From: the human T2T-CHM13v2.0 reference genome, Homo sapiens | Assembly: GCF_009914755.1 (NCBI RefSeq) | Contig: NC_060926.1 | Strand: one strand, 5' to 3' | Length of the DNA stretch: 64,000 bases | Shown here: positions 7,947 through 58,552 of the stretch, piece by piece | How the letters are laid out: each line of letters starts with the position of its first letter | Position numbering within the stretch: position 1 is the stretch's first letter | Translations under genes and position numbers: made by a program | The notes under the pieces: generated by a model | Told to the model about the DNA's origin: nothing | What the model saw: the letters and a program-made list of their open reading frames with translations, nothing else | The model's database searches: none

Positions 7947-8362
7947 TAAGTAGGTATAATATGAATGCAAAAGAATACATCCTGAAAATGGTAGCTATTA
8001 TTATACATGTGGCTACATTTCTTAATATAAACCGTGAAAACAACCATTCTGAAAAGCTGTGCCTTTACACCACATGTAACAGTCCCACATAAAGCAGAAT
8101 CTCCTTGGTGATTACAGTAATAATGACTACGATTGAATGAAACCCTTTAGCTCTCACTCTCTTTTCGAAAGGACAAGTAATAGGACATACATTTTAAGCA
8201 AAATATGGCCTCAGGCACTGTAGTACTGTTGATGCTTTTTAATTCGAAGATTTCCTACCATTGTAGTTCTTCAGCACAGGTTCTATGGCTTAGGACAGCC
8301 GGCTGTGGACCTGGACGCACTGATAAGTCATCTACTTGGACATACAATAATGTATCTGTGTG
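7920..8362 (-). other. Terminal exon (short coding end plus 3'UTR)
   Basis: Acceptor ttttctttctcag|CACACAG at 8362, no strong donor noticed before the poly(A) signal; phase-1 reading AHRYIIVCPSR* (stop 8328-8330); phase 0 HTDTLL...ELQW*; phase 2 xTQIHYCMSK*. Confidence 0.65.
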
Positions 8363-11300
8363 CTGAGAAAGAAAAATCAAAGGCTTTTGGGTGTTTATGC
8401 CTACTTGATGATCTCGGAAGAATGAATCAATTTATATTTATTTTAGTGAAAGATAAGCTACATGACCATAAAATATAAGATCTACTTCATTTTTTGAAAC
8501 TTTCCATCACAAATTGCCAAAAGATCCTTCCTGAAAACGTCGCAATGAATCATGCTATTCAGAAGCCAAACTTCCAGGATCCTCTTCCTGTTACTTGTAT
8601 AGACACAGAGACATGCAAAGATTAATTACTGTCCCTTTCTTAAAGAAATATTCATTTAAGACTGAGATAATTAGAAAAATGTGAAAAGAAACCTTTGACC
8701 ATCAGTGGTTGTGAAAGTGGTTTTTAAATCTTTTCCAAAATTTCTAGAGGCTTCTTGCATTGGACAGGGAATGAGAAAGATAAAAAGTGTCAAATCTGAG
8801 GCCACTTGACCCACAATACGATACAAAAACTTTTTTGTTTTCGTTGACTTTGTTTATTCTTCATAGAAAGATTTACCTTGGAGCAAAAAGGAAAAAGAAA
8901 TTTAAAAATTAGTGTACTATGAGAAAGAAAAAATATCCAAAGTAAAACCCAAAGGAAACTTGACAAACTTGTTTAGCTAACCAACCAGTTGATCATTAAA
9001 CAAGAATTTATTGAGTATCTATTTGTGCCAGTCACTGCTCTAGGGACCCTTGAGACACATCAGGGCAGGGTAGAGATTTCTGCCTTCACCAGATTCCTTC
9101 CTCTGGTGAAAGGAAGACAAATAAACAAAATAAATGAGAATTTTTTTAAAGTATGTTAAAAGATAGTAATTTCTATGAAGAGAAACTAGATCATGGTATG
9201 GAAGTTCAGGAGACGGCCAAATTGCAGTATTAAGCAGGGTGGTCGGTTTTAGTCTCCTTAACATTTTTAGCAAAATCTTGAAGTATGTGAGAATACTAGC
9301 CAATTATTTAACTATTTCAAGATAATTATATGTTATTTTTCCAATATAGACACCTCAGAAATATATCTACTTAGCTTTTCCTTGAAAATGTGGTATTCAG
9401 ATAACTAGGTGTCAGCAGTCTCAACTATATATCATTCTGTGAAGTCATTAGTATGGCAAAACATTAATTTACAAAAAAAGTTTCATCTCATTGGTACCTC
9501 CAGTCCATGAAAAAATGTCTATCTCCCTGCCTCCTTCAACCAATAAATTTGCATCTGAAAACCAGCATTTTACCAATGATTTCCTAGGGTTGCTCAAAGT
9601 GGAGGCAAGCCTATTTCATCCTCATTATTGTATGTAAGATAAATGTTAAAGTGTAAAGAGTAACAGATATCTAAATAATTTTGATTGAGGATAATCAATC
9701 TTTAATACTTTTTTGTACAAATGTTCTCTGTAGTACGGATCATCAGGACATGGGTGTCTAGTTAGTTTCAACCAAAGACAATGCCAGAATCATAAATAAT
9801 AGGGTATTAATATGATGGAAAGAAGATATTAAGATAATGATACTGTTTTTGTTAAACCTTTGGCAGATTACAGATCAATCGTTTTAAAATCATTTAATCC
9901 AAATGCACACGGTATCTTTTCCTTATTGTCACCATTAATAAAAAGCCTCCTCTATGCACTTTTGCAATTTGTCATGTAACATTAGCCTCAGTAATTGAGT
10001 ATTTTTATTAATCCATATTACAGATCATAAGGTTTTGATATTTGAGGCTAAATTATTTACTCAAGGTCAGTAAGGAACAAATCTGGAATATGAACCCAGC
10101 TCTTATGACTTCAGGACTATTACCCATCAGTTACAAGGTGGAGTTTTACTCCCTCAAATGAAAATCTTGATAATGAGAGACACCGGCATTCTAGATAAAA
10201 ATCTGTGAATGGTTTCCTTTATACTACCACTAAATTTATTGACTAAGAATAAGAAGATGAAACTCTGTTTCATGATTATTAGTGTTTAACTGAAGAAAAA
10301 TCTTTGAAGTCTCCTTAAGGTTGGCTATTCTATATTATGATAGTTATTTTGGTTCAAAATTGTACAAAGTTTTGCCTATCATAATAAGCAGCGTCACCTT
10401 TCATGCCTTGTAACACAAAGAGGGACAATATTATATTATTATATTTTTAGAAGATCTCTAATATTCTTCTCTGCTCCAAAATGTTATGATTCTAATTAAA
10501 GATCCAAATTTATCTAGTTTAAGAGCTAAAGACTATAGAAAATTACATTGTTTTTTAACCTCTGACCAGCACAATTTAGGAAATAGCCTCCTATCAAGCC
10601 TAAAAGTGTTGATGGTTGTTAAAAATCTAGATTAAAAAAGTACATTTGCAAATGTATAAATAACATAAAGTCATTATTTTGGAGAAGAAATAATCAGTTT
10701 AACCTCCATTATGTCATAATTTGAAAGTTTTGCTATTTGCAACATATTTCAGTAAAACGCATCTAAGTTTCTATTCATACCACCTCATTTTTTAAACTAT
10801 TAAAGTACAGAGAGTCCTTTCTGTGCTCCTCTCTGAGGATAAGTTAGTCTACAACAAGTTTAGTAAAAGTCTTGTTTAGATGATCAGTTTTTCAATGTTA
10901 TCATTGTTTAAGGAATGTATAATGACACAGAAAACTTTGCTTCACAGAGCCAGGATTACAGAAATACATTCAAGCTGGGACTTTTATTAGTAATACATGT
11001 AACAAGATTGGTTAAATCACAGCAAGAGATAATACATAAGCATATACTCTTCAATTAGTTTTTCTTGGTTCTACTCAGAACTAATGAACATGTAAGCTAA
11101 AGATGAACTAGTAAACAAACATTGAATTCTAAATAGTCACATAGCCTTCTATGTGTACTGTATAGATAAAAGTAGATATTTAATGTCTGATATTATAAGG
11201 TGAAACTCCGGTCTTCCCACGGTCTGCGGCTGTGAGTTAAGGGGATCCAGTATTGCAAGAGTAGAGGTAACACAGTAGAAAATTTAAACAAATATTCTTA

Positions 11301-11629
11301 CTTCTTAGTTTGTATATGCACCAAACACAGGCATTTCAACAGTAAGGGTCTGTCAACATTCACAAACTTTTCTGAACAAACAGATGACTTATTATTATGA
11401 AACTAAATGAGGAAATACAATTTAAGAATTTATACAGAAGAAGATACATATCATATTTTAATAACCAAATTAGGTCTATATCAGAAATCACAGCAAAATA
11501 TATTTTAAAAAGCATAAAACAAATATGCATTAGGATTTTAGTAACTGGAAGTTGTGCACTTCACAGACAAATTCGCTATATAGCAACACAGGACTTGAAA
11601 ATGGTATAAAAATAAAAATCATGGAAACT

Positions 11630-11989
11630 GTGTGATCTGAATGTTGTATCTTTCCAAAATTGATAAACTGAAATCCGAACCCACAAAATGACGGATTAGG
11701 AGAGGGGGATTTTGGGATTTGATTAGGTCCTGAGGGCAGAGCCTTTATGAATGGGATTGCTGTCCTTATAAAAGACACTCCAGAGAGCTCTCTTTCTCCC
11801 TTTCAAGTGAGGACACAAAGAGAAGGTAGTGATCTATGAACCAGGAAGCAAAATCTCACTGGACACCGACTGTGTCAGCCCTTGGTCTTGGACTTCCCAG
11901 CCTCCAGACGTTTGAGAAATAAGTTTCTGTTACTTACAAGCTACCCAGTTTATGGTATTTTTATATAGAAGCCCAAATGGACTAAGACA
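11630..11989 (+). mobile_element. MaLR LTR (MLT1A-like)
   Basis: ttggacttcccagcctccaga...ggactaagaca terminus. Confidence 0.75.
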
Positions 11990-13448
11990 AAGACAAAAGA
12001 AAATGTATTAAAAAAACACCAAATGCTTTATTCTTTTCTAAGTATTAATAATATCAAATCTATTATAAGAGTAAGTTTAATGAAATATTATTGTGGTATG
12101 ACAGTATAGATAAAAATTTAAAGCACATGGTAATATTAGATATTACTCATCAATTAGTTCAGGTGGAAGAGTTGTATCCAGGTCTTAACAATTACAATTA
12201 GCTTTAACAATTAGTTTTGAGAAAAATCTATCTTTATTACTTTTATAAATTATACTAATTTAAGATCTACTCTTCACAAAGAGAATAAGGCTTATGCACT
12301 TTCAGAATGTGTAACTATATTCTTTTCAGTTCTACTTGTAATATTTTGCTCTTCTAGTAACATGAGAAGCCTGGATAATTAAACAGTAAATGTCCATTTG
12401 ACTCTTTAAAATGGACAGTTGAAACCACCGCCCCCAAACAAATACATTTAAGTCATGAAAATCGCAAATTCAAGATACAATAAGAAAAATGTTCTGGAAA
12501 TACAATGGTCAAAGAGAAAGACAAGCTTTCTGCCCTCATAGAGCTTACACTCTACTAGGAAAAGTTAGCATTAAGTATAATCACAAATACAAATATGTAA
12601 TTACAATTATGATGACTTATGAAGGAAAAGTACAAGCCTCCAATCAAAGTGCCAACATTCGCTGATAATTATTAACTTGTGCTCCTGAGCTATTAACCAG
12701 CTATTATGGCTTGATTTTCATGTATAACATATTTTGACTTTTTTGTAATTTAAATAGTCATTCATTTCTGATAAGCCATTAAAGTAAAATATAAATAAAC
12801 AATCAAAGCAATTATTGGAATGAAGTGACCAGTTACACATACATAGGAAAAGAAACAAGAACAAAAGAGAAAAGACATACTTCATTCAAGGCAAACAGAT
12901 AAACCTAAATTCTAAATAGAAAGGAGAATAAAATTAGCATTATCAATGATCCTAACAACAACATCATTGACAAATTTCAAGCCCCAAAAAAATGTGATCC
13001 AAATTTCATGAAGACTATTTGAATCCATCTACCCACAACCAGCAAAAGTAAGGTTGGCTTTGAATAACAGATCTTCAGCTGCCCCAAAGAAAACTATAAT
13101 TCATTCAAAGTTTATTCTTAACCATATCCAGTTAAAGGTGACATATCTTTGTTTAGGAATGTAAAAAACACAAGTAACAGACTGACTCTAAAGTTTGAAA
13201 CAGGATGACTAATTAAAAATAGGAGGCACTATGGCCTATGAGAAGAATGAGTAAACTCGTGTTTAATTCATTGTGATTCTGCCAGCCCACAGCAGTGGTC
13301 TCTAACATGTCTCCAGCTGACTTCGCCATTTTTGTCATGTACACATGATAAGGGATTTTGCAGTTTCCAAACCCTGAGTTGTTATGGAGCACAGAAGGAT
13401 CAACATCAACTCTGTAAGGACACATCACAAAGTGAGACCAGTGCTTAC

Positions 13449-13462
13449 CTCGAGAGAAAGGA
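13449..13462 (-). CDS. 14-nt frameshifting microexon TCCTTTCTCTCGAG
   Basis: cttcttcatcctcctctcaag|...|gtaagc. Confidence 0.55.
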
Positions 13463-15414
13463 CTTGAGAGGAGGATGAAGAAGGTTATCAAAAGGCATGT
13501 TCTTTTTACATGTGTTAATTATTTTTTAATGAAATATATTCATCTATCACTGGACATTTAAACAGTTAGAAAATATTTAAGAATTCATAAAGAAGAAATC
13601 AAAATAATGAAGATGTTCTTGAATTTATTTTTTTATAGTCTTTTTTTCATAAAGAAAGACATTAATCCACAAAACTTCATTCCAGATCCCCTGAATTCAC
13701 TACTCACACAAGAGAAAAGTGGGGAAATTGAGAAAATTGCTCCATGATTATATTGAGATATAAAAATTTAGGAAACATAAGTTTACACTGTAAATCAGTT
13801 ATATAAACTGTCCAGACTTAACCCCGATTTTATGCACAACTAGGATTTAACTCCACATAGGAAATTGCAATGTAAAGTTCCTAAATTATTTTTTCCAGAT
13901 TTTTTTTTAATTCCTCCAACAGATGGCACAAGGTGGGGATATTCACATAAGACAGACTTGGATTGATGTTATGCTTTCCTTTTTCTGAATTCCTACTTCA
14001 CTTTGTACCAGTCTCACAGCACTTCCATTCTGTCATTCATTCTAACTTGCCCAAATGTTTTCATTTCCTTGTTATATGAACACTCTGTGGATGCCATGTC
14101 ATAGTCATGATTGTATTTCTGCTCTAGAATATAGATTTGTTGAATTAATCTGCAATTAGAGAAGACTTACAATCACCTTTCTCATTTCTCTACATCTAAT
14201 TAAACAATATGAAATGGGTACCAATGTGATTTGCAAAATACTCAAGTCCATCTAAAAATCTTCTCTCTCCATTTAACAGCAAAAAGCTTACTCGTCCCAA
14301 TAATAGAAGAAGAATGCAATGAAAAAAACAAATTCCTGTCCTCTGTGTCTTTGTGCTGATTGAGGAACAAAATCTGATGAAAACTGGTGAAGTTAAAAAA
14401 TAATGTTTGACACACATGCCAACAGAAAACATTTAAGACTGACATAGAAAAACTAAATAAAGTTAAGTGACACTTGACATTAAGTACACCAAAACAAATA
14501 TCAGCTGAGTATAAACATGAACTATTCCATATGTAGAAAATGGTTGTATAATTAAAAAATTATTTTAAGAGTTACTTTTTCACAAAATAACAAATATACG
14601 AGTGTATATACTTAGAAATTGTGTATTTATACATGCATCCATACAAATACACATATGCATACATACAAACACATATACATATACTTTACTCAGCCAGTAA
14701 GATAAAGTATATTCTTCCCTCTATGCCATCCCTAAGTCCACAAACTAAAGAACATGATGAGAAATGCCCACTTAAGAGAACGCAGTGGATGAGATTTTGG
14801 CCTCAAGTAAAAATGTTTAGAAAGCACTCAAAATGGTACACAAAACCTCTAAAATAATTGATACATACTGTCATTTGCATAGTTGCTAGAGGCTTAATAT
14901 GAGATTAAATTATACTATTGAAAATAGCTGCCAAAACCAAAACTGTGATAACCTATGTTGTTGGATCAAAGTATTCAAACAGCATTTGTTTCTAAAGCTC
15001 TATTTTACACATTTAAAATTGATATCATTTCTTACATATTGCCTGGCTCATGTTCAGATGCTTTTTCAAGCAGAAAAGTTTTCCTGCTAGATGACACAAA
15101 CATAAAGGTGCAGAACTGTGAACTGTGGTCCCAATTCACCAGATTAACACTGAGAACACAGGAAAGAATAAAGATATTCCTGCATTTAAACTAATAATAA
15201 TAATTAAAAAACAGAAACTAAATAGAAACATTCACTAACACACAGTTAAAAATGGTTGATTTAAAGACTATTCTATATGTTTGCCACAGCTGCATACCAC
15301 TTACTTCCTTTTAATGACAACATTAAACACAATGAGGATGGTTTTAAATGGCAAATTACACATGCTTCTGGATTTCGTACCAACATCATCAAAGAGTACA
15401 CATGCCTGACTTAC

Positions 15415-15451: not shown

Positions 15452-16011
15452 CTTAAAACAAAGTTAGTATGCATAAAAAGAAATGTCTTGCTCCTCTGTT
15501 TGTCTCTTTCTTAATACTGCCTTTTTAGGTTACTACAGTGTTCATGTGCATAAATGACACCTAGCAGACAACAAGATGATGCACCCACAGCAGTACCATT
15601 TCAGTGGTGCACATGCTTAGACTTATGTCTCAATACAGAATGGCTAGGGCAGGTGTGCTCCAGAGCTGAATATTTGAAGATCACATATTTACAGTTCCTA
15701 CACTTATTTAAGTACCATTAAATGATACTGCAGAAACTGACACCGAAACTTGTAGCTAATTTCTAAATATATTAATTATGTGAGCACCTGACATGAAAAA
15801 GATCACTCTAAAGAGAAAAAAAAGGGTGGGGGCGAAAATGGAAACATATTGATGGATTTTTCTTATCTTAAATTTATAAAATATTTATTAACACATATAC
15901 CTACCTCCCAGTGCCCATTACCAATGCCAAAAGGTCTAAATACATTTATGTAACTCAGACACACTGTAATTCATACAGATGATATTAAGAAGAAATAAAA
16001 TAATGTAATAC

Positions 16012-16023
16012 CTTTACTTTTAC
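16012..16023 (-). CDS. 12-nt microexon GTAAAAGTAAAG (phase 1 GKSK)
   Basis: Long pyrimidine-rich upstream tract, ccatag|...AAG|gtatta. Confidence 0.55.
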
Positions 16024-16717
16024 CTATGGATTTGATGAAATGGGTCCATGAAGAAAGGGTTTCCAGACAAAGAGGATAAAGAGGAGAAAAACAACAATAA
16101 GTATTATGAACATATGTAAAGCCACTACTCTCTGAAAATTAAACAAGACATGAAAGTATAAACAAGGTTTTGAAGACAAATGGAGATGCAATCAGGACAT
16201 GTTGGGAATTCTGCCTTTTTTGAAGGCAAGTACATGCAAAAAACTGAAAGGCCCATGCTCAGTTTTAAAAGATCACACAAAAGAGAGACATACAATAAAT
16301 CTACGTAGAGAAAGTATTGATTCTGTGGAACACTATACTCAGCATTCTACAAGCCAGAAGCCAAAGATGTCTGCATGTTCCCAAACTGTCATGCATGGAT
16401 GAAAAATGGACTTATTTTTTGGATACAGTGGTTTAAACTGAGGATCTTCTTTCAGACAGCAACTTCTGATGGTTCTCGGTTTTTCTTTACCATAACCACC
16501 CTTTACTGCATATGCTGATAAGTATATAGAAACTTTCAATCACAATTTCTTATGTCTCATTTATTTGCAAATATTATAATGCAAGAAATGAAGGAAAATA
16601 AAAGCCACAGGAACAAACCAAAATCAAACGAACAAAGAAATGGAAGAAAAACACATGAAAAAATGTGAACAAAAGATATGTATTTAATTTGCAGCCATAT
16701 AATTTGCAAGCATTTGC

Positions 16718-16747
16718 CCATCCTTTGCAGTGATGGTTTGAAAGCAG
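16718..16747 (-). CDS. Possible 30-nt exon (phase 1 AAFKPSLQRM) with a GC donor
   Basis: Strong acceptor tgttttcttgttctgtag; donor TGG|gcaaat is weak and non-canonical. Confidence 0.3.
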
Positions 16748-16800
16748 CTACAGAACAAGAAAACACTGAAAGCAGAGTGGAAAAGGAACAGAGCCCATAC

Positions 16801-16830
16801 CTTGGTCGCCCATCATCAGGTGCGCCAGAC
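16801..16830 (-). CDS. 30-nt microexon (phase 1 GLAHLMMGDQ)
   Basis: tgctcttgtttcccttcaag|GTCTGGCGCACCTGATGATGGGCGACCAAG|gtatgg; retains 2 CpGs in an AT-rich context. Confidence 0.75.
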
Positions 16831-18529
16831 CTTGAAGGGAAACAAGAGCACAGTCAGCAATAAACAAGGGAGCATGGGAAGGCAGGGTTGTCACGGTGAC
16901 AAAAATGTTCAGTGACAGACATCTCTTTTCCTATGAGACATGTCTGTATCACAGAGGCAAATCAAAAAGCATTCTTTCAACCCCTGGTTGGAATGCTTTG
17001 GGGCAAAGTGTTCTAGAACTGCGTTTTAAACACTGGCATATGCTGCACTGTGTATTTCTTCCATGCATCAGTTGGAACAACCAAGAGCACAAGAGCATGA
17101 CTTAAAATCCAACCAAACCCCTCAATATTACATCTGCCCTCTGTGCCCTTTAATGAGACTGTTTTGCATATTGCCCCCACAGGGCTTGTAATTCTTCAGT
17201 GATGAAATTACATTTTTTTAAAACCCAATGGAATACATGAAACATGGGCTGGGTCTGATCTTTTTCCCCTCATCAAAAAATGAGCATTTTATAATTAAAT
17301 GAAGAAAAAAAAATTGTAGTCACATTGAAATGATAATGCAGAAATGTCTCCTTGTCTGACACATGTAGCGGCTGACTAGGCTTGTTCAAATACAAAATGA
17401 TCATTAGACATGCAGTTGTAAAGCTAGAATTTACTACAAAAAAGGGTTTTTAAGAAACAATGGGTCAGCTGCAAATACACTAAAGCAATTTTCCTCAGAG
17501 AACAAAATTATTTGAGATTTCACCTAAATATTTCTTAAATGCTGAACTCTAAGTTAGTGTAAAGATACATATTACAGATGTAATTTCATCAAGGAATTCT
17601 TTAAAGGACATTGAAATTCCTTTATTTAATTTATTTATTATTTCCTGCTTGACAATTCACTTCAAACTGAAGAGCACTTCTCTTCTAAATAATACTACTA
17701 ACATGCTTTCAAAAATTCTTTTGCTATTCAAGAAGTTACTTTTTACTGAAAGGCATAATTCCTAGCTTTTTATTTTAAATTCAGAAATAAAGCTATTTCT
17801 CTATCCATGTATATGTCTACAATACGGGAAAATGTTAGAGAAATACACATTTATCAGTTTTAATAAACTTGTATTTTCAATTTCCAGTGCTATTTCAGAT
17901 ATATTTGAAACTTTATTTGAGCTATATAACATTACACATTGGTTTCATCAGTATTTAAATTATCTGTGTTGTTTTCTTAAAATTTTAGGGGTATTCAAAC
18001 ATCTCTGTAGGCTAGATATAATTACAAATAATCATCTAATCACAATATAACATGAAAGTTATTAAACACAGTAGTGTGATGCCTCTGAACTGTAGCCTCT
18101 CTGTATTTTCTGAGTGATTTTAACAAAAAGTTCACACAGGCAGATTCAACAGCTTATGATCTATTGATAATTCATAGTGTTTTATATGCTGATAGTGGCT
18201 TATTTGTCCAGGTTACATATTTTTTCATTTAATTTCACTTTTAAAACTACTACAGATATTTCCAAGTAACATTTTATAAGTTTTATGGACTAAATGAGGA
18301 AATTGTCTTGAAGATCTACCTTTTAGAAAATATATTAGGTACTTCCAACGGTTTTGATGCTACATCAATAAGGATGGAAATTCACTAATCCCCAAAGAAT
18401 TCACATTCTTCCTGCTAGACTTTCTACCTATACTGTAAAGGTCATATTATAGATAGAAATATTAAAATTATGATTGAACAGACTTTATTACAATAGCTTA
18501 TGGGCCTATATTCTAAAAATAAATCTTAC

Positions 18530-18592
18530 CATGGGATGAGTGTGTGTGAAAAGAGAGAAGCATTCATGCTAATTAGGCTGATTTTAAAGCCT
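18530..18592 (-). CDS. Possible 63-nt exon (phase 1 EALKSA*)
   Basis: Pyrimidine tract ...cccaag acceptor and ATG|gtaaga donor. Confidence 0.3.
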
Positions 18593-19522
18593 CTTGGGAT
18601 GCAATAGGATTTTAAGAGAAAAGAAAAGCATTTCACAGGATGGATAAGGAAATGCAAAAGAAGTTGAAAAGATACCTCTAAAAAATAACTTTTAAACTCA
18701 GTTGACATGCACAATATAAATGAGACTGACTTCAAAAGATATTAGGCCTGCAGGGTAATATATCATTTTTATCAAGTATATACTCACATGCAATTAAAAT
18801 TATAGTATACAAAAACAGAAGCCATATATGGATACAACACTTAGAAAATAGTAATTTATGATTTCTTTTAAAGTTTTAATCTATTTTATTTAAATAACAA
18901 AACAGAAATGTTCAGCAGCTAAGCAATTATAATATTATCCATGTACGAATCACAAATATAATGTTTACCCCTGCTACTGGTCAACTCTGTATTATCATGA
19001 AGTGTTCTTTCTTAGATACATGAAGTCTTGGTAACCTTAATGGCTATTTATCTGTAACCTGGGATAGGGAGTCTTTTTCTAAGAAATCCTTCATTCTATG
19101 GAAATGTACATTTACAGAATGACTATATTTCAAAATATGGTAGTAAAATAAAATATACTAAATGCTGTCTTCCCATATACAAATATTAGTAAATTAGTAA
19201 ATCTTTATGTAGGAACTGTTAATGCTGTGAATATATAAGTTGATAGAACATATATAATTTGATAAAACCTTCCCTTTCACCATTCTTTTGTTATGCCTTG
19301 TTCTTTTTGCATGTTAACACTTTGAAGATTTGTTTGTAGCACACTGACTAATGCATTTAAGTTCTTAAAAAATGAGAATAAGGAAATATGTTTTAATTTG
19401 CTGGATTCTACAGGAAAATATATAAGCTATATAACTTCTTCAAAATTCCTTGACAGAGATAATTTTTTATAAAAGACTGAATAAAATATTTAGCAGGCAA
19501 AAAATATTACAAATATACTTAC

Positions 19523-19571
19523 CAGGAATCATATCGAAATGCTGTATGCTTTCATGTCCACTGGCCAATGG
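19523..19571 (-). CDS. Possible exon ending at a strong donor (phase 1 AIGQWT*); 5' boundary uncertain
   Basis: CTG|gtaagtat donor; only weak acceptors at 19571, 19584 or 19682. Confidence 0.3.
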
Positions 19572-19904
19572 CTTATTTTTTAATCTAAATTTATGTCTCT
19601 TACTTATACTCAGTACTTTATTGCATTCTTTTTATACATCCAATCATTTTAAACAAACCAATGGGCTTGAAATGAGATAATGCTAAATTTTGCCAGAATA
19701 GAATAAGTCATTTTGATAAAAAATGGAAAAAGGATCATGCACTGTCTTATGAAACTACAAAGAAATATTTTGTCTTTTAAAGTAAAAAAAGCAGAATTGT
19801 TATCATTTTTCTCATACAGAACACTGTAATAACTATTCTAAGCTTCATATGGGATGCTGAGGTCTAACAAGGGTTGGAGTTAAGCTTGAAAAAGTTTCAT
19901 ATAC

Positions 19905-19935
19905 TTGGGATGGCAGGGTTGAGAATGTATGTGTT
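19905..19935 (-). CDS. Possible 31-nt exon (phase 1 EHIHSQPCHP)
   Basis: tatcacttttcatacag acceptor; weak donor CAA|gtatat. Confidence 0.35.
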
Positions 19936-19997
19936 CTGTATGAAAAGTGATACACAATCCAGAAACCAACAAATGTTCAGAAAGAAGTTCAACTTAC

Positions 19998-20027
19998 CAT
20001 CTAACTTCAAGATGTACCCTATTAGTA
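19998..20027 (-). CDS. 30-nt (or 21-nt) microexon (phase 1 VLIGYILKLD / GYILKLD)
   Basis: tttgtcctttatttcttag|tactaatag|GGTAC...GATG|gtaagt; two in-frame acceptors 9 nt apart. Confidence 0.65.
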
Positions 20028-20080
20028 CTAAGAAATAAAGGACAAATGAGAGTTGGAAAAATAAGGTAGAAAGCACCCAC

Positions 20081-20098
20081 CTTCCACATTGTTGTCTT
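20081..20098 (-). CDS. 18-nt microexon (phase 1 EDNNVE)
   Basis: tttttccttttctctccctccttgtcatgtgctttcag|AAGACAACAATGTGGAAG|gtgggt. Confidence 0.7.
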
Positions 20099-20164
20099 CT
20101 GAAAGCACATGACAAGGAGGGAGAGAAAAGGAAAAACATTCATTAAGCAGCATGCAGACTGGAC

Positions 20165-20224
20165 CTTGCCTTTGCATGTCTTCCTCATGCAAGGCACCAA
20201 ACACATCATGCAAGTGCTCCATCA
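20165..20224 (-). CDS. 60-nt candidate exon (phase 1 VMEHLHDVFGALHEEDMQRQ)
   Basis: ttttgttttcccccttgaatgatag acceptor, CAAG|gtccag donor; same frame as EDNNVE in ORF 20028..20231. Confidence 0.45.
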
Positions 20225-22909
20225 CTATCATTCAAGGGGGAAAACAAAATCACAGGGAAGCAGGTTCCCTCCCATTGGCAGCATTGATAGGAAGTGAGAC
20301 AAACTTTCATAATACTGCCATGCCCTGTGCAAAGAGTTTTTAAAAAAATCTTTCAACTACCCAGTATAAAGCAAACATTATTGTTATTACATGTTGCTGG
20401 TGTGGTCTTTCTAGGCAATTATTTTTAAAAGCTTTTTTGTTTTCTTTTTAACAATTCTAAAAGGTTCTATTTCCACATACTGATTTGGCCTTAGATTTTA
20501 AGAAGTCTATTGGAAAGAGCTATGAAATTTCACTTAAAGATATTCCAGTTCTACCAAATATATTATCCATATGCCATTACTGCCTTTTAGTATTTCTAAT
20601 ACCTCAATTGCTTTCCTTAAAGAAAAACAACGTAACTATATGGAACTAAAATCTGCAATTTATTTGGTTAATTTATAGCATATTAATATTGTATTGCAAA
20701 TGAGAATAGTTTATTGGAATTTATAAAAATGCTAACTTTTAAAAATGTTAGGTAGGAAAGTGATCACTGGAAGAGAAGTCCACTGGGAACTGTCCATAAG
20801 GCAATTTGGTTTGTCGTGATTTAAAAACTTTGTACTTCTGTTGAGGATGTGAATATGAATTTGTTTGAGACAATGAAAATATTTAGCTCAATTTCTCTTA
20901 TATTTCTATATATCTATAAAATACCTACATGTTTTCATATATTTTGTTAGTCATATTTCCATGTGTGTACCTATGTATATATGTATAAACATATATATCC
21001 AAGCAGATTTGTATTTCCCAAGATAATCAATATAAATATATAAGGTTTAAAGTATTATTAGTACCTAGTGGAAAATTCAAGTTCTATTTGAGACTCGGGG
21101 CCTGCAATCCCGGCAAGAAATGGAAGGGAAAGCTGTCTTAGGGGACTAGGGCAAGAGCAAGGTTTCAGTAGTTATCAAAAATGTTCTAATAGTAAACTCT
21201 ACCCATGTTGACATTCTAGTCTCATCCTTATTTTTTGTTTAATTAATTGTACTTTATAAACTCATCATCTGATCAGAGGTGTTTATAAACATGGCAACAT
21301 GCAAGTATAGAAACTTGAAAGCAAAAACAACTAAGAATGTACCATTTGATTAGGTTCACCTAAAACCTTCTTAATTGGATAAAGTTACTAGTGAATTAAA
21401 AATCAACAATTTTGTTTAAAACATTTCAGCTGAAAATTGAAGTATCAACACAGGCACATCTACTGATGTGGTGTTAGCATGTAATAGAAAATGGCTGGTG
21501 GCTAAATGTGGGTAATAACATCTTTACACAATACTTGGTTTTCCAGAGTTTATTTTTAAAGAAACAACAAAAAAAACTTTCAAATATTTGGTCTGTGATA
21601 TTGACTTCTAGTTTGTTTTTGTTTGTTTTTTGGACTGCCAATTTATTAAACAAGGAATTAGGCTGAATTTGTTACTTTTCAGTGGTGACTTTGATGTTAC
21701 ACAAACACAAATATTAAAGTTTTGTTTTACTGCATTATATTGGACATAATACAAAGATATAAATTATTGTAATGTTTAAGATATACTTTTCCTGTATATT
21801 AACTTTGAAATTGTATCTTCTGTTTAAGATGCTTACTTAACAAGATTATTTAATATGTATTGTAAAATAATAAAATCAGGGAATTTAGAGGAGAGTCATG
21901 TGCCAAGACAGTATGTCAATTGCTACAGCATTATTTAATTTCTGTAAAGACGGGCAAATATGGTTGTGAGGAGCAGTGCTTCGGTAGAAATTTTGGTAAA
22001 GTGTGGCCTAAAACTACAATTAAAAAAAAAGGAAAGAAAAGCAAACCAACAAAATGAAACAGGCCCAGGCCTGACACCAACTTTAGGAATGCACTAAGTA
22101 GGGCATTATAAAAGGAGTTCAAGGTCACTGATTCAGTCCTGACGGCAAGTTCTCCTTTCATGACCATAGATACAAGCCTAGGTTTTGCCATGGATCCTAC
22201 TCTACCATCTAGCATTTTTTTCTGAATTCTTATTCATAATGAGAACAAGCTTAATAATGGGAATTCCTTTAAACGATCCAAGTCATGTTTAATGTGTAAA
22301 CAAATTCTGACTCGACTAAATCCAGAAAAGTGGTCTGTCTCAGAAAATTTAGATTTAGAAAAAAAAAATCAAAGTACTAGAATAAATGGGTGATATATTA
22401 ACCACTGTTTAAAAAAAAGATGGTGATGATGATGAAGACAACTGGCTTGGAGCAGACTTTCCTTGAGTTTCCATATACTTTCAGATTCAATCTCAGAATA
22501 AAAATCCTCTTTCCTCTTCCATTCTATTCTATTCTGGTATCCATTTGCTAACTTTACATAATTTAAAACTTGTTAACCTAAAGAAAATCCCTACATTATT
22601 TCAGAATTTGGACGTGATTATAACTGGTGGTAGCTCCAGCATTTACAACCATTCTCCAGGTATTTTTTTCCCTTCTCTTTCCTTTCCATTTTATTTCTGT
22701 ACTAAATAATAAATGTCGAGTCAAAAAAGAATAGTTTATCTCCTCATAACAATTTTTTCTTTATCTTTGTAAATTCTTATACACACAAATGCTACTTTGC
22801 TTTTGAGCAGCAACAAAGACAGGTGCTGAATTTTGGCATGCCACGGTGTACAGGTAAAGCAGCATATTTTGGTTTAGTGTAAGGTAGAAAGCAGTCCATC
22901 CGGCCTTAC

Positions 22910-23045: not shown

Positions 23046-26002
23046 CTATAAAGATCACACTCTTGCTTTCTTTTCATTGGAAAAATAATGAATATAGAGC
23101 TGTGAAAAAGATACTTTACATTTTATTTTTCTTTCAGATAGGATGGGCTTCTCTCACAAAGATGGGAATTAGGCACCAGAATATCAATCATGCTATGAAT
23201 AATGGCTGTGTGCTGACAAGAAGGCAAGCAACAGCCTGTTTTAAAATCACTGTAAAAGAGCATCTTCACAAAATTTTTATCTTCGGCCCCCAGCTTATAA
23301 GAATGCAAGGACAGTAACTTTAGTTTATCATTCCAGTGTTCTTTGCACATACTCTTAAGTATACGGTTCTAGGAAAACAAATGAATACAAAAACAAATGT
23401 GCTTGTTTCAATATAAAGAAAATCATGACCAGTAAAAAATTAAAATTTGGAATAAAATATCACAAAAATCTCCTTTCTGTATAATCAGTGCTAAAGTTTG
23501 GCAATATGTAAGTCTTTCTCTAAATGTACAGACAGTGGTCCATTTAGTGCTACAACTTACATTAAAAAATGACCAAAAGAAGCTTCCTGATATCACTTGG
23601 GCATTCCTTTACTTCTTTAATTTTTGGTTTCCTTCCTTCTCTGCTAGATGCCTGTGACTGGCTCCCCTCATTTTCCTTGATTCCCTCTCTCCTCCATCAA
23701 AACTGCCACTACTGCGAGTAGCTTCTGTCCCAGATACCAGCACTCCAAGGTATGGCATATTACAGCAAAACTGGTGGTGGTAACAGGCAGTGGAAAGACA
23801 GATGAAGAATAAGATTCTATTTCCTTCCTCCATACAGGGAGTGTGCTAACTTCTATCCACGTCTCTCTCGCCCATCACATTACTTCTCAAGCCTGTACTC
23901 CTCATTTTGGAGATCAAATGCCAGTACAGCAGAGCTTAGTTCCCATGGTGGCACAGGATGGAGCTTTGTTTTTTCTTTTGGTATTAGCAGTGAAAGCCTT
24001 TAAAAAACCTCAATAGTCTGGGAATGCTTCAAGCACTGGGAAATGGAGGAAATCATTGAGACTGTGGATTAAAGCAGCAGTCAGCTGAAGGAATAGAAAT
24101 GCGGCCCAGAACCAAGACGATGTTCAAAGAGAAAATGAAGCATAAAGGTCCATTATGGAGACTTAGGGAAGGAAAGAAATGGTCCTGGACAGGAATTGGG
24201 CTAATTTCAAACATGCTTTTTAACAGAGGACATCACCTCCTTTTTCAATCCCAGCTAAATAATATTGCAGGACACTCCCACCCAGCCTGCTTGGAGTACT
24301 CATCCTAGGAAATATATGGAGTCAACTACAACAACCAGTTTTTCTCCTTCTTCACTGCTCGGGAATAAAAAATGTATCTCTAAACCGGATGCAGCAACAC
24401 AGATGTTCCTGGCATCACACTAGAAACACTTAAAACAATTTCCCCCCAAAATATTTTGTTACAAAGACATTTGTGGTATTTAATTCAAAATGTTCTATCT
24501 TGTTAATGACAATTAAAAGAAAGAAGAGAAAAAGAGAAAGGGGGCAGGAGGAAGGAAAAGCAAGAAAGCCTAAAGTTATTGCGATTTATAGTGATTAAGC
24601 TATTTGATGAACCTGATGAAATTTAATAACTGTTAGTCAACATATTATAATATAAATCGAATGACTCACATAAGCTATAATGAATTCAATTTCAAATTTT
24701 CATGAGGAACTACTACAAGGATTTTCAAATTTGTTTTGCTTTGATAATCTCAGTTCTTCCCCAAGTCTAAATCTTGAGAGTTAACATTTCAACATTCATT
24801 TCAATAGTTGGACTTAGGAAGGAACACTGAATTTAACAGTGACTGTAAACATGGTGACAAGCACAGTCTACAGTATGTGTGCTCACACCACCTATTTTTA
24901 TTTTTTATTGCTGAGAAATGAATGCTTCCTGATACGGAATTGACAGACAACACTGAGCAGAGTGCTTATCACATACCCTCCCAACCAAGCTTAATCACTG
25001 TTAAACAACTCTCCTAAGAAAGGTGGCTCAGGTGAGCAGTGCTTTCCTTTCTAAGAGTTTGACGTCATCATATTTTAGGATACAGAGCAAGAAAGCTCTT
25101 GGACTGAGGTTAAGAGAGTGAACTTAAATACACCCTACCTACTTTCCCAACTTACCAACCCTTCTAGTGGTTATGTGGTTTTGACTTCTTTGTTAACAGA
25201 TGGACAGGAGACATCCTTTGGCCTGTGTATTACCATCAGAGAATATTCTGCAATGTGTTCTAGGTTTGCTATCATTAAGATGAAAAGTAGGTGAACTCCC
25301 ACTAATAAGACTAATGGTCTTCATTTGAAAGAGCTGTCAAATGTCTACTGGTATATAAATTTTTTTCACCATTTTTTTTCATCTTACTACAGATGTTTTT
25401 CAACTAAATATTAAAATACTCTTAACTTTATTATTCTATACCTGGGTTCTTAGACATGTCCAAAACAAATCTATTTAATTTATCTAAGAAAAGGCAAAAA
25501 TACTTTGTGATGAAATTAAAAATATGACTAAACCACATTGTAAAAAGGAGTCTTAAGTTTGATGCTTAAAAATTACATTTACATGCAGTGTACAGAAAAT
25601 AAAATTATTTATATGATATGACCGACCTGACAATTATACATTCTTTTTATATCAAAGAAAAAATGAAATTTTATATCAAATTAAAAATATTTTATATTGT
25701 TATCTTCACTTCAATAGGACCCTCACATATGTAACAAACAGCTTGGAAGGAAGCTATTCCTTGGAAGGAAAAATGCACAGCATATTAAAAGGATTTGATT
25801 TTTCATTTCTTCAGAGCTCTTAGTTTTTCATTTTATATGGTGTTAAAAATTCACTGTATTTACATGTGTCAGTTTATGACTAAATTAATTTCAAAGTTTT
25901 ATGAAAATCACTGAAAATTATTTTAAAAGGAATAGGCCATTCTTAGCTAAATAAATTAGATCATACATTGAAATTTTCCAGGAGGCTCTCGGGATTGATT
26001 AA

Positions 26003-26227
<225 letters not shown>

Positions 26228-26248
26228 AAAAAATATTACTTATAATCA

Positions 26249-26446
26249 GGCTGAGCACGGTGGTTCACACCTGTAATCCCAGTACTTTGGGAGGCTGAGG
26301 AAAGTGGATCACTTGGTGTCAGGAGTTCGAGACTAGCCTGGCTAACATGGTAAAACCCCATCTCTACTACAAAGACAAAAATTGGCTGGGCATGGTGGCA
26401 CATGCCTGTAATCCCAGCTACTCAGGAGGCTGAGGAAGGAGAATCA
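26249..26446 (+). mobile_element. 3'-truncated AluS
   Basis: Alu consensus up to ggagaatca, then abuts L1. Confidence 0.9.
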
Positions 26447-29592: not shown

Positions 29593-29879
<287 letters not shown>

Positions 29880-30333
29880 GTAACCCGAATATGGAATGGT
29901 AGAAAAGCAAAAGAAAAAAAAAAGTGGCAAAATTATCTATGGGATGAAATGATGAAATAAAAAGTTTCATGTCAAGAATGAGTAAGATGTATAATAAAAA
30001 TTTATAATAGACTTTGCCAAGTCTATTTTAGTATTTAAAGTATTTTCCAAGTCTATTTTCAGTGTTGAAAGAATGCTGGCCTGCTCCAAAGATTAAATAT
30101 CTTTAATGATTATAGAAAACTGACCTTTTTATGTTAGATTAGTGACATCAAATCTCTATTGATACATAGTGAATGAAATAAGGCAATGCATTTATACCTC
30201 AATTTCCTAATGAATAACATTTAATCTAACATTTAATCCATATGTCCCAAGCATATGAGCTGTTGTTTGGAAAATAAACTAAGTATTGAGAAGGAAAGAT
30301 GATTTCCAAAAGATACTGAGGTCATCTGATATT

Positions 30334-32842: not shown

Positions 32843-33072
32843 TTCATTTTTAGCAAAATGCCTGACACATAGCAAAAAGTCAATAAACATGAGGAATTAA
32901 ATGAAGAATGAATGACCCAATGGTAAAATCAGGCCTGACTCCAAATTCTATGTTCATTCCTCTGTATTAGGGAGTTTTAGCAAACTTTTAATTAGTCACA
33001 GGTACCCTACAGGCTTAGCAGTATATTTATAGGAAGTAAATAATTGTAGATTTTTAAAAAATTAAATGTAGG

Positions 33073-33412
<340 letters not shown>

Positions 33413-50545: not shown

Positions 50546-50612
50546 CATAATACTAGCTACTTACTCACTAACGTGATGGGCTTAAAACAAATACACTTTA
50601 AAAGTAAGATTT

Positions 50613-57375: not shown

Positions 57376-57772
57376 CTGATGTTAAAAAACAAACAACAAC
57401 AACAAAAGAAAAACACTGACTCAGACATGGCCTTTCTAAAGTGGGACAGCTGTCTACCTTCTCTCCTTCCCTTTTCCCTCCTTATTTCCTTCCTTCTTTC
57501 TCCCTTTCACTTTCCTCCTTTCATTCCCTGAAAACATTCTATACTGGTCAAATGGACAACGAGGAAAACTATATGTAGCAGTTTCTTTAATGTATCTTTG
57601 TATATGCCAAAGTACTTCCACCTTACTATCTTTCCTCCAAATGCTTTATTTTTAATTTTCCCCAATTGACAAATTTATTTTACAAGTATATAGGTTTGAA
57701 CTATGTGTTTACACACAAGTGACACAGAGAATTCTTCAGCAGTCATTATTCATGGAGATGTTGCCAGTTTAC

Positions 57773-57832
57773 CTGAATGAGGAAGACACCAGCATTGACA
57801 TACATGTTTAAGCAAGATACGGTGATTTTTCC
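57773..57832 (-). CDS. Possible 60-nt exon (phase 1 GKNHRILLKHVCQCWCLPHS)
   Basis: tgctattttatatattcaag acceptor, CAG|gtaaac donor; length is a multiple of 3. Confidence 0.4.
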
Positions 57833-58543
57833 CTTGAATATATAAAATAGCAGAGTGACTAACTGATAGTGGTGTTACCTTTAAGCAGATTCCTCTATTC
57901 TGTTCATGAAGAATGTATATCTTCCTAAGGAAAGTTGTGTTTGAATAAATGCCTTTCTTCTGTGTATTGAATAACTTAGAAAGTGCTTCTTTCAATTTAG
58001 CATACACAATGTTCTGAAAATAGCCAACTCAATAAATATTTGTTTAATGAATTATGGTATCCTTGCACTAGGCATCAGTCCAGTTTAATTTGAGCTCAAA
58101 TAATACAAACATATGTCATTGTCCTTCTCTTTATGAAAAATAGAGCAACATGCTAATCAGCATTTAATTTTTTGCCTACTATGCAGAAGAATATGAAATG
58201 AAGGTATTAAGATCCAGTTATGCTATTTAGTGTATGTTATTTCGACAACGATTACAAAATCTTTGTCATCTCAACTATTGATACATTTGAAATTGTCCAG
58301 TGAGTAGAAGGTTTAGACTATGCAAAGGAAAAACCTTTATGCTGTTAATCATCTCAAACTTTCTGCCATTCTAAGTCGCATGTTTAGAGTAAAAGTCAAG
58401 TAGTATTTTATTCTTGGCAATGGGAAAACTATGACCGTTTTCAAAATGAATTCCTATGTGTCAGGTGACCACTAAAGCAATAATTTAGTCCCCAGTGTTA
58501 GTTTTGTTCATATACTGTAGCATAGAAAATCTGCATTCTGTAC

Positions 58544-58552
58544 CTTCTATTC
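58544..58552 (-). CDS. Possible 9-nt microexon GAATAGAAG (phase 1 GIE)
   Basis: ttttcgtgttcaccatcttcaag|...AAG|gtacag. Confidence 0.45.

What the first reader, a model, noticed from the sequence alone, without database searches (positions are those of the whole stretch)
8328..58552. Large microexon array forming a combinatorial C-terminal tail cassette
Seen: about 18 short segments with minus-strand splice signals (9, 60, 28, 27, 84, 26/30, 136, 60, 18, 30/21, 31, ~49, 63, 30, 30, 12, 37 and 14 nt) upstream of one terminal exon. Most 3n-length ones are stop-free in the same phase 1 (GIE, VWETLNTNE, VMEHLHDVFGALHEEDMQRQ, EDNNVE, VLIGYILKLD, GLAHLMMGDQ, GKSK). Others add stops (V*, EQS*) or shift frame. 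Inference: one protein can be given many different short tails, and many of these exons are probably missing from standard annotation because aligners miss exons under ~30 nt.
Basis: partly seen in the sequence, partly recalled or inferred. Interest (0 to 1): 0.85.

Follow-up and report, generated by a model that had tools for sequence, protein, structure and literature searches.

The report
NRXN1 splice-site-1 microexons, already known
Three of the roughly eighteen short segments are the well-known, already annotated microexons that vary a flexible internal linker of the synaptic protein neurexin-1; the rest look like chance splice-site pairs, and none of them forms a C-terminal tail.

Summary
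The window is the 5' part of NRXN1 (minus strand). Three listed segments are real and are in RefSeq: exon 3 (20098-20081, 18 nt, EDNNVE; second acceptor at 20095), exon 4 (16830-16801, 30 nt, GLAHLMMGDQ) and exon 5 (16023-16012, 12 nt, GKSK). All are 3n and phase 1. They lie between exon 2, which ends the EGF1 coding at window 121660, and exon 6, which starts LNS2 at window -282257. This is alpha-neurexin splice site 1 (SS1), an internal linker, not a C-terminal tail. The other ~15 segments are no more than chance gives: 22,340 bare AG..GT segments on the minus strand against 18,955 on the plus strand, and 6.9 of the 12 3n lengths expected open in phase 1 against 7 seen. The 60-nt candidate beside exon 3 lies in a conserved block holding three UGCAUG motifs. 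Its frame is broken in 2 of 5 non-human sequences, so it is more likely a splicing-control element. The 30-nt candidate (20027-19998) keeps splice-like flanks in two non-human sequences but has a variable interior; it stays an open minor possibility. Already known; low interest.

The parts
20081..20098 (-). NRXN1 exon 3, SS1 microexon of 18 nt (EDNNVE). It has a tandem CAG|AAG acceptor, which gives the 15-nt form 20095-20081.
   Evidence: Hub RefSeq table. Sequence ...gctttcag|AAGACAACAATGTGGAAG|gtgggt. Exon 3 is kept in all five non-human sequences (EDNNVE, EDNYVE, or read in another frame in P0005) and as the inferred EDNHVE in P0008.
16801..16830 (-). NRXN1 exon 4, SS1 microexon of 30 nt (GLAHLMMGDQ).
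   Evidence: Hub table. Paralogous 30-nt exons with AG/GT flanks: NRXN3 GLSHLMMSEQ (score 40 against best antisense 23) and NRXN2 GPAHLTLNSE (score 22, tied for best on the sense strand, against best antisense 19).
16012..16023 (-). NRXN1 exon 5, SS1 microexon of 12 nt (GKSK).
   Evidence: Hub table. NRXN3 has GTAGAAGTAAAG (GRSK) 2.8 kb after its exon 4 paralog, 11 of 12 bases identical. The Edman sequence DQGKS of the SS1 insert in PMC3084293 spans the exon 4/5 join.
20151..20224 (-). Conserved intronic block upstream of exon 3. Proposed RBFOX-type splicing-control element.
   Evidence: 3 motifs in 100 nt is reached in 5 of 200 shuffles; the candidate's frame is broken in P0004 and P0006 while the nucleotide-level similarity continues.
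19998..20027 (-). Not annotated; status open.
   Evidence: P0005 reads VLIEYASNVD and P0007 reads ALTESISNVD, both with compatible AG and GTAAG flanks; P0008 has 8 unrelated residues there. No paralog was found.
16664..16830 (-). RefSeq alternative form of exon 4 that reads through the donor to a 3' end at 16664. In phase 1 the tail would be GMGSVPFPLCFQCFLVL*.
   Evidence: Hub table. An AAATTAAATA signal-like sequence lies upstream of the end.
10965..14149 (-). RefSeq alternative terminal exons (acceptors at 14149 and 13411, shared end at 10965). Phase-1 tails would be D* and ELMLILLCSITTQGLETAKSLIMCT*.
   Evidence: Hub table. AATAAA lies about 20 nt before 10965.
8328..8362 (-). It has a good acceptor-like site but no annotation.
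   Evidence: absent from the hub table.

Best explanation
The window holds alternative splice site 1 (SS1) of alpha-neurexin-1.

Three cassette microexons lie on the minus strand: exon 3 (18 nt, or 15 nt through a tandem CAG/AAG acceptor), exon 4 (30 nt) and exon 5 (12 nt). They sit in the ~404-kb interval between exon 2 (LNS1 plus EGF1) and exon 6 (start of LNS2).

Every junction splits a codon after its first base, which is always G. Every cassette is a multiple of three. So any combination, from none to all (up to 3 x 2 x 2 = 12 forms), keeps the reading frame. The forms insert 0 to 20 residues (EDNNVE-GLAHLMMGDQ-GKSK) into the linker between EGF1 and LNS2. The number of forms is my inference from the exon geometry.

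[quoted passage not shown] The cassette therefore tunes the length of an internal hinge, not a C-terminal tail.

The remaining ~15 listed segments are AG..GT pairs of the kind that chance supplies by the thousand in a 50-kb AT-rich intron.

The 60-nt candidate is best read as part of a conserved intronic control element. It carries three UGCAUG motifs 58-114 nt upstream of exon 3. This is the RBFOX-family binding motif as I recall it; binding here is inferred, not shown.
For: Annotation: the hub table places coding exons 16012-16023, 16801-16830 and 20081-20098 in the selected 23-exon transcript, and lists 20081-20095 in other transcripts.

Sequence, phase and peptides.

Position in the gene:
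- Pfam Laminin_G_2 hits place LNS1 at C2:51023859-51024260 and the first half of LNS2 at C2:50619433-50619642.
- Exon 2's open frame ends ...CDCSRTGFRGKDCSQ|G gtaagg at C2:51023660.
- Exon 6 starts ctctag|GAAAAGAAGAATAT..., i.e. G|KEEYIATFKGSEYF, in phase 1 at C2:50619743.
- The published mouse SS1 junction-flanking primers (bioRxiv 10.1101/2020.08.21.262097, methods passage) match the end of human exon 2 exactly and exon 6 with 1 mismatch. They therefore bracket this window.

Protein-level evidence: PMC3084293 (passages) describes SS1+ as a 19-residue insertion between EGF1 and LNS2. [quoted passage not shown] The authors call the segment unstructured and protease-susceptible.

Human long-read work scores exons 3, 4 and 5 as the SS1 exons (10.1101/2025.11.11.687875, passages).

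Paralogs: NRXN3 has GLSHLMMSEQ and GRSK; NRXN2 has EEHPME and GPAHLTLNSE. All have AG/GT flanks and phase 1.

Chance tests.

The 60-nt candidate: frame breaks in P0004 and P0006 (2 of 5 non-human sequences) while nucleotide-level similarity continues.
Against: I had no transcript or junction-read data and no genome alignment, so I cannot show that every one of the other ~15 segments is unused.

About 8 of them could not even be placed.

The splice-site matrix rests on recalled frequencies, and it scores the real exon 5 poorly.

At strict cut-offs the minus strand has somewhat more 3n, phase-1-open pairs than the controls (5 against 0 and 0.8). At the looser cut-off of 2 for both sites, the 12 such pairs include annotated exons 3 and 4 and the 30-nt candidate.

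The 30-nt candidate keeps its length, an open frame and compatible AG/GTAAG flanks in P0005 and P0007.

The key primary papers on neurexin exon structure were not held: Treutlein 2014 and Flaherty 2019. I did not try to fetch Schreiner 2014, Tabuchi & Sudhof 2002 or Ullrich 1995, which carry no PMC id in the reference list seen. Extra SS1 exons reported there cannot be excluded.

RBFOX binding is inferred from the motif alone.
Confidence: 0.93

Rival explanations
1. About 18 microexons form a cassette upstream of a terminal exon at 8362-8328. One protein then receives many different short C-terminal tails, and most of these exons are missing from annotation.
For: All the listed segments that could be placed have AG/GT flanks. 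The 8362 acceptor-like site scores well (5.2), and a stop follows after 11 codons. RefSeq does list transcripts that end inside the window (hub table).
Against: The three real exons are internal, 298 kb upstream of the next coding exon. No annotated exon exists at 8362 (hub table). The counts and the phase-1 openness equal chance expectation. The annotated 3' ends are elsewhere: 10965 and 16664.
Confidence: 0.02
2. One or two further, unannotated SS1 exons exist beside exon 3. One is the 30-nt segment 20027-19998 (VLIGYILKLD). It would be used instead of exon 3, because the 53-nt gap is too short for an intron (this limit is my recollection). The other is a 144-nt extended exon 3 that starts at the 20224 acceptor; 60+66+18 nt is open and 3n.
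For: Strong sites at the 30-nt segment: acceptor 2.3 and donor GTAAGT 5.6, as good as exon 3. It is among the 12 3n, phase-1-open pairs in the window with both sites scoring at least 2. Its length, open frame and compatible AG/GTAAG flanks are kept in P0005 and P0007. The frame 20231-20031 is open for 67 codons through the 60-nt segment, the spacer and exon 3. An automated gene model of Nasalis larvatus (P0003) reads 20224-20081 as one exon.
Against: Neither is in any of RefSeq's 25 transcripts (hub table). The human long-read work I could read scores only exons 3-5 at SS1. Neither peptide was found in a full-text search of the paper library. The interior of the 30-nt segment is less conserved than its flanks: 5 of 10 residues in P0005, against 8 of 10 and 14 of 20 for the flanks. 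P0008 has 8 unrelated residues there. The frame of the 60-nt segment is broken in P0004 and P0006, and P0005 shifts frame in the spacer. No paralog was found in NRXN2, nor in the first 160 kb of the 401-kb NRXN3 interval. P0003 is a prediction, not a transcript. ORF-derived sequences are biased towards open frames.
Confidence: 0.1

Closest known systems
Alpha-neurexin alternative splice site 1 (SS1) of NRXN1, exons 3-5
   Same: It is this. The position is the same (between EGF1 and LNS2). The exons are the same (18/15, 30 and 12 nt), and the insert peptide matches the published end ...DQGKS. See the hub table.
   Different: Nothing differs for the three exons.
SS1 of the paralogs NRXN3 and NRXN2
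   Same: Short phase-1 exons with AG/GT flanks lie after the LNS1-EGF1 exon. NRXN3 has a 30-nt GLSHLMMSEQ and a 12-nt GRSK. NRXN2 has an 18-nt EEHPME and a 30-nt GPAHLTLNSE.
   Different: I had no annotation for those genes, so the paralog exons are inferred from sequence. I recognised no 18-nt partner in NRXN3 and no 12-nt partner in NRXN2.
Neuronal microexon programmes in synaptic adhesion genes, e.g. the LAR-RPTP meA/meB microexons
   Same: Tiny in-frame cassettes used in combination, differing between neuron types. Nrxn1 and Nrxn3 microexons are named among them in PMC7821500 (passage). A LAR-RPTP microexon 'code' is the subject of PMC10883964 (search listing only).
   Different: LAR-RPTP microexons change ligand-binding surfaces. 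[quoted passage not shown]
Alternative last exons and intronic polyadenylation giving truncated isoforms
   Same: RefSeq lists 3' ends at 16664 and 10965 inside the window. In phase 1 these would add short unique tails after the SS1 exons.
   Different: These are three fixed ends, not a combinatorial set. Their coding status is not given in the table.

Membership tests
Neurexin SS1 cassette | Lies between the exon that ends the first EGF domain and the exon that starts LNS2 | tested here: met
   LNS1 and LNS2 are mapped by Pfam PF02210. Exon 2 ends ...GKDCSQ|G. Exon 6 starts G|KEEYIATFKG. The published SS1 primers match both.
Neurexin SS1 cassette | The cassettes are multiples of three and share one phase, so any combination keeps the frame | tested here: met
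   18/15, 30 and 12 nt. All junctions follow codon position 1, which is G each time.
Neurexin SS1 cassette | The encoded peptide equals the published SS1 insert | tested here: met
   PMC3084293 reports a 19-residue insertion whose last residues are DQGKS by Edman sequencing. The window gives ...MMGDQ|GKSK. 19 residues would equal 5+10+4 if the 15-nt form of exon 3 is used; that link is my inference.
Neurexin SS1 cassette | Alternative inclusion shown by transcripts | not testable with these tools
   There are no RNA data here. I rely on the RefSeq table and on passages of 10.1101/2025.11.11.687875, which report variable inclusion of exons 3, 4 and 5 across cell types.
Neuronal microexons (30 nt or less) | Length of 30 nt or less, with strongly conserved flanking intron | tested here: met
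   The lengths are 18, 30 and 12 nt. For exon 3, ORF-derived sequences of other species stay alignable from about 130 nt upstream to about 50-150 nt downstream, through frame shifts. For exon 4 the same search found nothing, so this was not shown there.
Neuronal microexons (30 nt or less) | Dependence on neuronal splicing factors (SRRM4, RBFOX) | not testable with these tools
   Motifs only. There are three UGCAUG 58-114 nt upstream of exon 3 and 10 sense-strand copies in 16000-20300, against a maximum of 8 in the best window of 200 shuffles. That UGCAUG is the RBFOX site is recalled. RBFOX1 is named as a regulator of Nrxn splicing in general in PMC13643856 (passage).
   The next coding exon lies 298 kb downstream and opens LNS2. 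The gene continues about 987 kb (hub table). No exon is annotated at 8362-8328.
Protein-coding exon (the 60-nt candidate 20224-20165) | Reading frame kept across species | tested here: not met
   The frame is kept in P0001, P0002 and P0005 (20 of 20 residues) but shifted inside the segment in P0004 and P0006. P0003 is a primate gene model. The sequences are unnamed ORF predictions, and the indels are inferred from frame switches, not seen in DNA.
Protein-coding exon (the 30-nt candidate 20027-19998) | Frame, length and splice sites kept across species, with the peptide under constraint | tested here: inconclusive
   Length, open frame and compatible AG/GTAAG flanks are kept in P0005 and P0007, but the interiors differ (VLIEYASNVD, ALTESISNVD). 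P0008 has 8 unrelated residues there. Only ORF translations were available.

The most novel reading that the evidence does not exclude
The 30-nt segment 20027-19998 lies 53 nt after exon 3 and has a GTAAGT donor and a strong acceptor. It could be a mammal-restricted fourth SS1 exon, used only when exon 3 is skipped, which would put a hydrophobic decapeptide (VLIGYILKLD) into the EGF1-LNS2 hinge. Alternatively, its conserved splice-site-like flanks could act as a decoy that helps define the 18-nt exon 3. In either case the exon 3 neighbourhood, with three UGCAUG motifs upstream and a pseudo-exon downstream, would be a compact control module for SS1, the least studied neurexin splice site.
Probability: 0.1. 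Interest if true: 0.35.

Novelty: already known. Interest (0 to 1): 0.1.

Why it matters
NRXN1 is a major risk gene for autism and schizophrenia, and its splice code is much studied. But SS1 and its three microexons have been described since the 1990s and are in standard annotation, so the finding adds nothing new. Two things are useful here. First, the check shows that AG..GT pairs with an open frame are worthless as evidence inside a 100-kb AT-rich intron. Second, there is a small lead: a conserved block around exon 3 with three UGCAUG motifs and a splice-site-flanked 30-nt segment. A review notes that studies of the SS1 variant remain limited (PMC13212319), so this block could be examined in existing long-read and CLIP data.

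Tried and rejected
Literature:
- Treutlein 2014 (PMC3977267 and its DOI), Flaherty 2019 (PMC7451045) and Wamsley 2018 (PMC6541232) are not held.
- A search for AK093260 with NRXN1 found nothing.
- A full-text search for six peptide strings found only GLAHLMMGDQGK, in one paper (PMC12707391). It found nothing for VLIGYILKLD, VMEHLHDVFGALHEEDMQRQ or VWETLNTNE.
- A search on exon numbers gave mostly unrelated papers.
- bioRxiv supplements are closed, so the isoform tables of the human long-read preprint were not seen.

Own-genome searches with the 351-nt exon 3 block (DNA) and the 20-residue peptide found only the locus itself.

Paralog scan. There is no match above the antisense control for the 60-nt or the 30-nt (VLIGYILKLD) candidate in NRXN2 or in the first 160 kb of the NRXN3 interval. 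For the 27-nt candidate the NRXN2 sense strand gave VWESLSTKM (score 29 against best antisense 21), but it has no AG/GT flanks; the NRXN3 sense best (26) was below the antisense best (31). EDNNVE is too short to score this way.

Protein database:
- The 20-residue query was too short. The 67-codon open frame that contains it gave 6 hits.
- The frame of the 30-nt candidate gave 2 hits.
- The exon 4 frame gave none. This shows the method misses real conserved exons, so its blanks mean little.
- The frame of the 27-nt candidate (56303-56277) gave one 46-residue hit, P0009. It is 76% identical evenly across candidate and flanks (VWETLNIND, then GDNLLIWKI), so there is no exon-specific signal.

TGCATG is not enriched over the whole window: 42 copies against 38 +/- 6 expected. 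Only the sense-strand copies near the SS1 exons are enriched.

Splice-site strength as a discriminator was rejected, because the real exon 5 scores below hundreds of chance pairs.

Full report
**Where the window lies.** The hub table places the window in NRXN1 on the minus strand, 62-126 kb downstream of the gene's 5' end and about 987 kb before its 3' end. The selected RefSeq transcript has three coding exons here: 20098-20081, 16830-16801 and 16023-16012.

**Checking the observation.**
GIE and GKSK were read directly. All seven have AG before and GT after.
Each real exon is entered after the first base of a codon, and that carried base is G every time.
- EDNNVE, GLAHLMMGDQ and GKSK are exactly the three annotated exons.
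- Exon 3 has a tandem acceptor, ttcag|AAG|ACA. This explains the annotated 15-nt form 20095-20081.
- I could also place the 28-nt 'EQS*' segment (57375-57348) and the 30/21 pair (20027/20018-19998). A 14-nt segment (13462-13449) and a 37-nt segment (15451-15415) are probable matches.
- The other listed lengths are ambiguous. Each has 8 to 134 AG..GT segments of that length in its interval.

**Chance.**
- Between 8328 and 58552 there are 22,340 bare AG-N(9..140)-GT segments on the minus strand and 18,955 on the plus strand, where no gene is annotated.
- I scored sites with a simple weight matrix whose frequencies are recalled, so it is only a ranking device, applied equally to the controls. At cut-offs that admit the weakest placeable candidates there are 2179 segments on minus, 1714 on plus and 1912 +/- 85 in ten dinucleotide shuffles.
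- At strict cut-offs the minus strand has 15 against 6 (plus) and 10 +/- 4 (shuffles). Five of those are 3n and open in phase 1, against 0 and 0.8. At the looser cut-off of 2 for both sites this subset includes annotated exons 3 and 4 and the 30-nt candidate VLIGYILKLD.
- The real exon 5 scores poorly, so site strength cannot separate true from false here.
- For the twelve listed 3n lengths, chance predicts 6.9 phase-1-open segments.
- The list as a whole therefore carries no signal beyond the three annotated exons.

**What the three exons are.**
- A Pfam Laminin_G_2 scan of the window's own genome puts NRXN1's first LNS domain at C2:51023859-51024260. The first half of the second is at C2:50619433-50619642.
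- The open frame through LNS1 runs on through an EGF-like cysteine pattern. It ends ...CDCSRTGFRGKDCSQ|G followed by gtaagg at C2:51023660, window 121660.
- The LNS2 exon begins ctctag|GAAAAGAAGAATAT at C2:50619743, window -282257. In phase 1 it reads G|KEEYIATFKGSEYF.
- The three microexons are thus the only annotated coding sequence in a 404-kb interval between EGF1 and LNS2. Intron 2 is about 101.6 kb, intron 3 is 3.25 kb, intron 4 is 0.78 kb and intron 5 is about 298 kb.
- The mouse 'SS1' junction-flanking primers in bioRxiv 10.1101/2020.08.21.262097 (methods passage) match the last 18 bases before the final G of human exon 2 exactly. They match exon 6 with one mismatch.
- PMC3084293 (passages) describes the SS1+ form as a 19-residue insertion between EGF1 and LNS2. 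It gives DQGKS as the last five residues by Edman sequencing, and calls the segment unstructured, protease-susceptible and a source of mobility at this junction. DQ|GKS is the exon 4/5 join read here.
- The human long-read preprint 10.1101/2025.11.11.687875 (passages) scores exons 3, 4 and 5 as the SS1 exons and reports that their inclusion differs among cell types.
- Reviews I read in passages place SS1 among the alpha-specific sites (PMC7985251). [quoted passage not shown]

**How it works.** All junctions share phase 1 with a carried G, and all cassettes are 3n. Any subset therefore keeps the frame: up to 12 forms and 0-20 inserted residues. This count is inferred from geometry; I did not see the full list of observed forms. 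The insert lengthens a flexible hinge between the LNS1-EGF1 head and LNS2-6 (shown for one form). It is not a C-terminal tail.

**Paralogs.**
- I read the homologous interval of NRXN2 in full, and the first 160 kb of the 401-kb interval of NRXN3.
- NRXN3 has ctcag|...|gtaggt around GLSHLMMSEQ. Its score is 40 against a best antisense score of 23.
- 2.8 kb further on, NRXN3 has a 12-nt GRSK exon that is 11 of 12 bases identical to GKSK.
- NRXN2 has a 30-nt GPAHLTLNSE and, 4.9 kb upstream, an 18-nt EEHPME with a gtgagt donor.
- I had no annotation for these genes, so these exons are inferred from sequence. They fit an SS1 array that predates the split of the three genes.
- The 60-nt and 30-nt (VLIGYILKLD) candidates have no paralog above the antisense control. 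For the 27-nt candidate, the one NRXN2 sense hit above its control lacks AG/GT flanks.

**The two candidates next to exon 3.** The 60-nt segment (20224-20165) ends 66 nt before exon 3. The 30-nt segment (20027-19998) starts 53 nt after it. A database search with the 67-codon open frame that covers the 60-nt segment, the spacer and exon 3 returned six predicted proteins.
- One, P0003, is an automated gene model of Nasalis larvatus. It reads 20224-20081 as one exon and also uses odd exons elsewhere. It is a prediction, not a transcript.
- The other five are unnamed ORF calls on short contigs of other species.
- I mapped them back on the three human frames. P0001, P0002 and P0005 keep the 60-nt frame, with 20 of 20 residues identical. 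P0004 and P0006 switch frame inside it while remaining similar at the nucleotide level. P0005 switches frame in the spacer.
- The spacer is as well kept as the candidate itself.
- This is the pattern of a constrained non-coding element, not of a coding exon.

The block contains three sense-strand TGCATG motifs, 58, 93 and 114 nt before the exon 3 acceptor, and two of them lie inside the 60-nt candidate. Three in 100 nt anywhere in the window is reached in 5 of 200 shuffles. The stretch 16000-20300 has 10 sense-strand copies, against a maximum of 8 for the best 4.3-kb window in 200 shuffles. The antisense strand has 4 there. UGCAUG is the RBFOX-family site; that is recalled knowledge. RBFOX1 is named among regulators of Nrxn splicing in PMC13643856 (passage), but not specifically for SS1. 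I therefore read the 60-nt candidate as part of an intronic control element for exon 3, with about 0.6 confidence in that detail.

The 30-nt candidate is less clear.
- Its sites are as good as those of exon 3.
- In its own frame P0005 gives ...YFL|VLIEYASNVD|GKLNF and P0007 gives ...YFL|ALTESISNVD|GKWNI. Length, open frame and residues compatible with the AG and GTAAG flanks are kept, while the interior changes freely.
- P0008, which has an inferred EDNHVE for exon 3, has eight unrelated residues there.
- The segment is in none of RefSeq's 25 transcripts. Its peptide occurs in no paper of the library.
- A 53-nt gap is too short for an ordinary intron (recalled), so it could be used only when exon 3 is skipped.
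- I give it about 0.1 as a real, lineage-restricted exon. A decoy or exon-definition role for its splice-like flanks is an alternative.
- ORF-derived sequences favour open frames, so this evidence is biased.

**The distant candidates.** The frame around the 27-nt candidate (56303-56277) found one 46-residue relative, P0009. It is 76% identical evenly across candidate and flanks, so there is no exon-specific constraint. The same kind of search found nothing for the real exon 4, so blanks from this method mean little.

**Tails.** RefSeq's other transcripts end inside the window at 10965, with acceptors at 14149 and 13411 and AATAAA about 20 nt before the end. They also end at 16664, by read-through of the exon 4 donor. 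In phase 1 these would give D*, ELMLILLCSITTQGLETAKSLIMCT* and GMGSVPFPLCFQCFLVL*. Whether they are coding is not in the table. If translated they would make an LNS1-EGF1 fragment, which is the only sense in which 'alternative tails' exist here.

**Limits.** I had no RNA data and no vertebrate genome alignments. The primary papers that define neurexin exon structure were not held: Treutlein 2014 and Flaherty 2019. I did not try to fetch Schreiner 2014, Tabuchi & Sudhof 2002 or Ullrich 1995. bioRxiv supplements are closed. Extra SS1 exons reported there cannot be excluded.

**Verdict.** This is a rediscovery of NRXN1 splice site 1, mislabelled as a C-terminal cassette and inflated by chance AG..GT pairs. 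It is already known and of low interest. The small residual lead is the conserved exon 3 neighbourhood.

Noticed in passing
window 20151-20212, and 16000-20300 as a whole: Three sense-strand TGCATG motifs lie within 62 nt, just upstream of exon 3. There are 10 sense-strand copies in the 4.3 kb that holds the SS1 exons, against a maximum of 8 in the best window of 200 shuffles and 4 on the antisense strand. This suggests RBFOX-type control of SS1.
   Followed up: partly
window 20031-20231 (minus strand): A 67-codon open frame runs through the 60-nt candidate, the 66-nt spacer and exon 3, so a 144-nt extended exon 3 would be in frame. An automated Nasalis larvatus gene model (P0003) uses exactly that.
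   Followed up: partly
L019 and L020 (C14:72506894-72506923 and 72509723-72509734); L010 and L011 (C11:64685867-64685838 and 64690789-64690772): Apparent SS1 microexons of the paralogs, each with AG/GT flanks and phase 1. NRXN3 has GLSHLMMSEQ (30 nt) and GRSK (12 nt). NRXN2 has GPAHLTLNSE (30 nt) and EEHPME (18 nt). They were not checked against annotation.
   Followed up: partly
window 10965-14149 and 16664-16830: RefSeq transcripts end inside the window. In phase 1 they would add the tails D*, ELMLILLCSITTQGLETAKSLIMCT* or GMGSVPFPLCFQCFLVL* to an LNS1-EGF1 fragment. Their coding status is unknown.
   Followed up: partly
window 33326-33245, 29842-29745, 26366-26271: Some of the strongest splice-like AG..GT pairs on the minus strand lie inside repeat-masked stretches (33041-33392, 29698-29885, 25994-26306). 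They translate to similar peptides (…SAVV*S.LTA.SASQ…), so they are repeat-borne pseudo-exons.
   Followed up: no
window 20095-20098: Tandem CAG|AAG acceptor of exon 3. The distal site removes one codon (EDNNVE becomes DNNVE). That would give the 19-residue SS1 insert reported for the bovine construct in PMC3084293.
   Followed up: partly
window 68509-68580 (L003, outside the window): The Nasalis larvatus model P0003 also uses a 72-nt segment here (VTLAQIMTSFLHILLCKLEKAQSP in human), flanked by ag and gt. It is another ab initio exon without other support.
   Followed up: no
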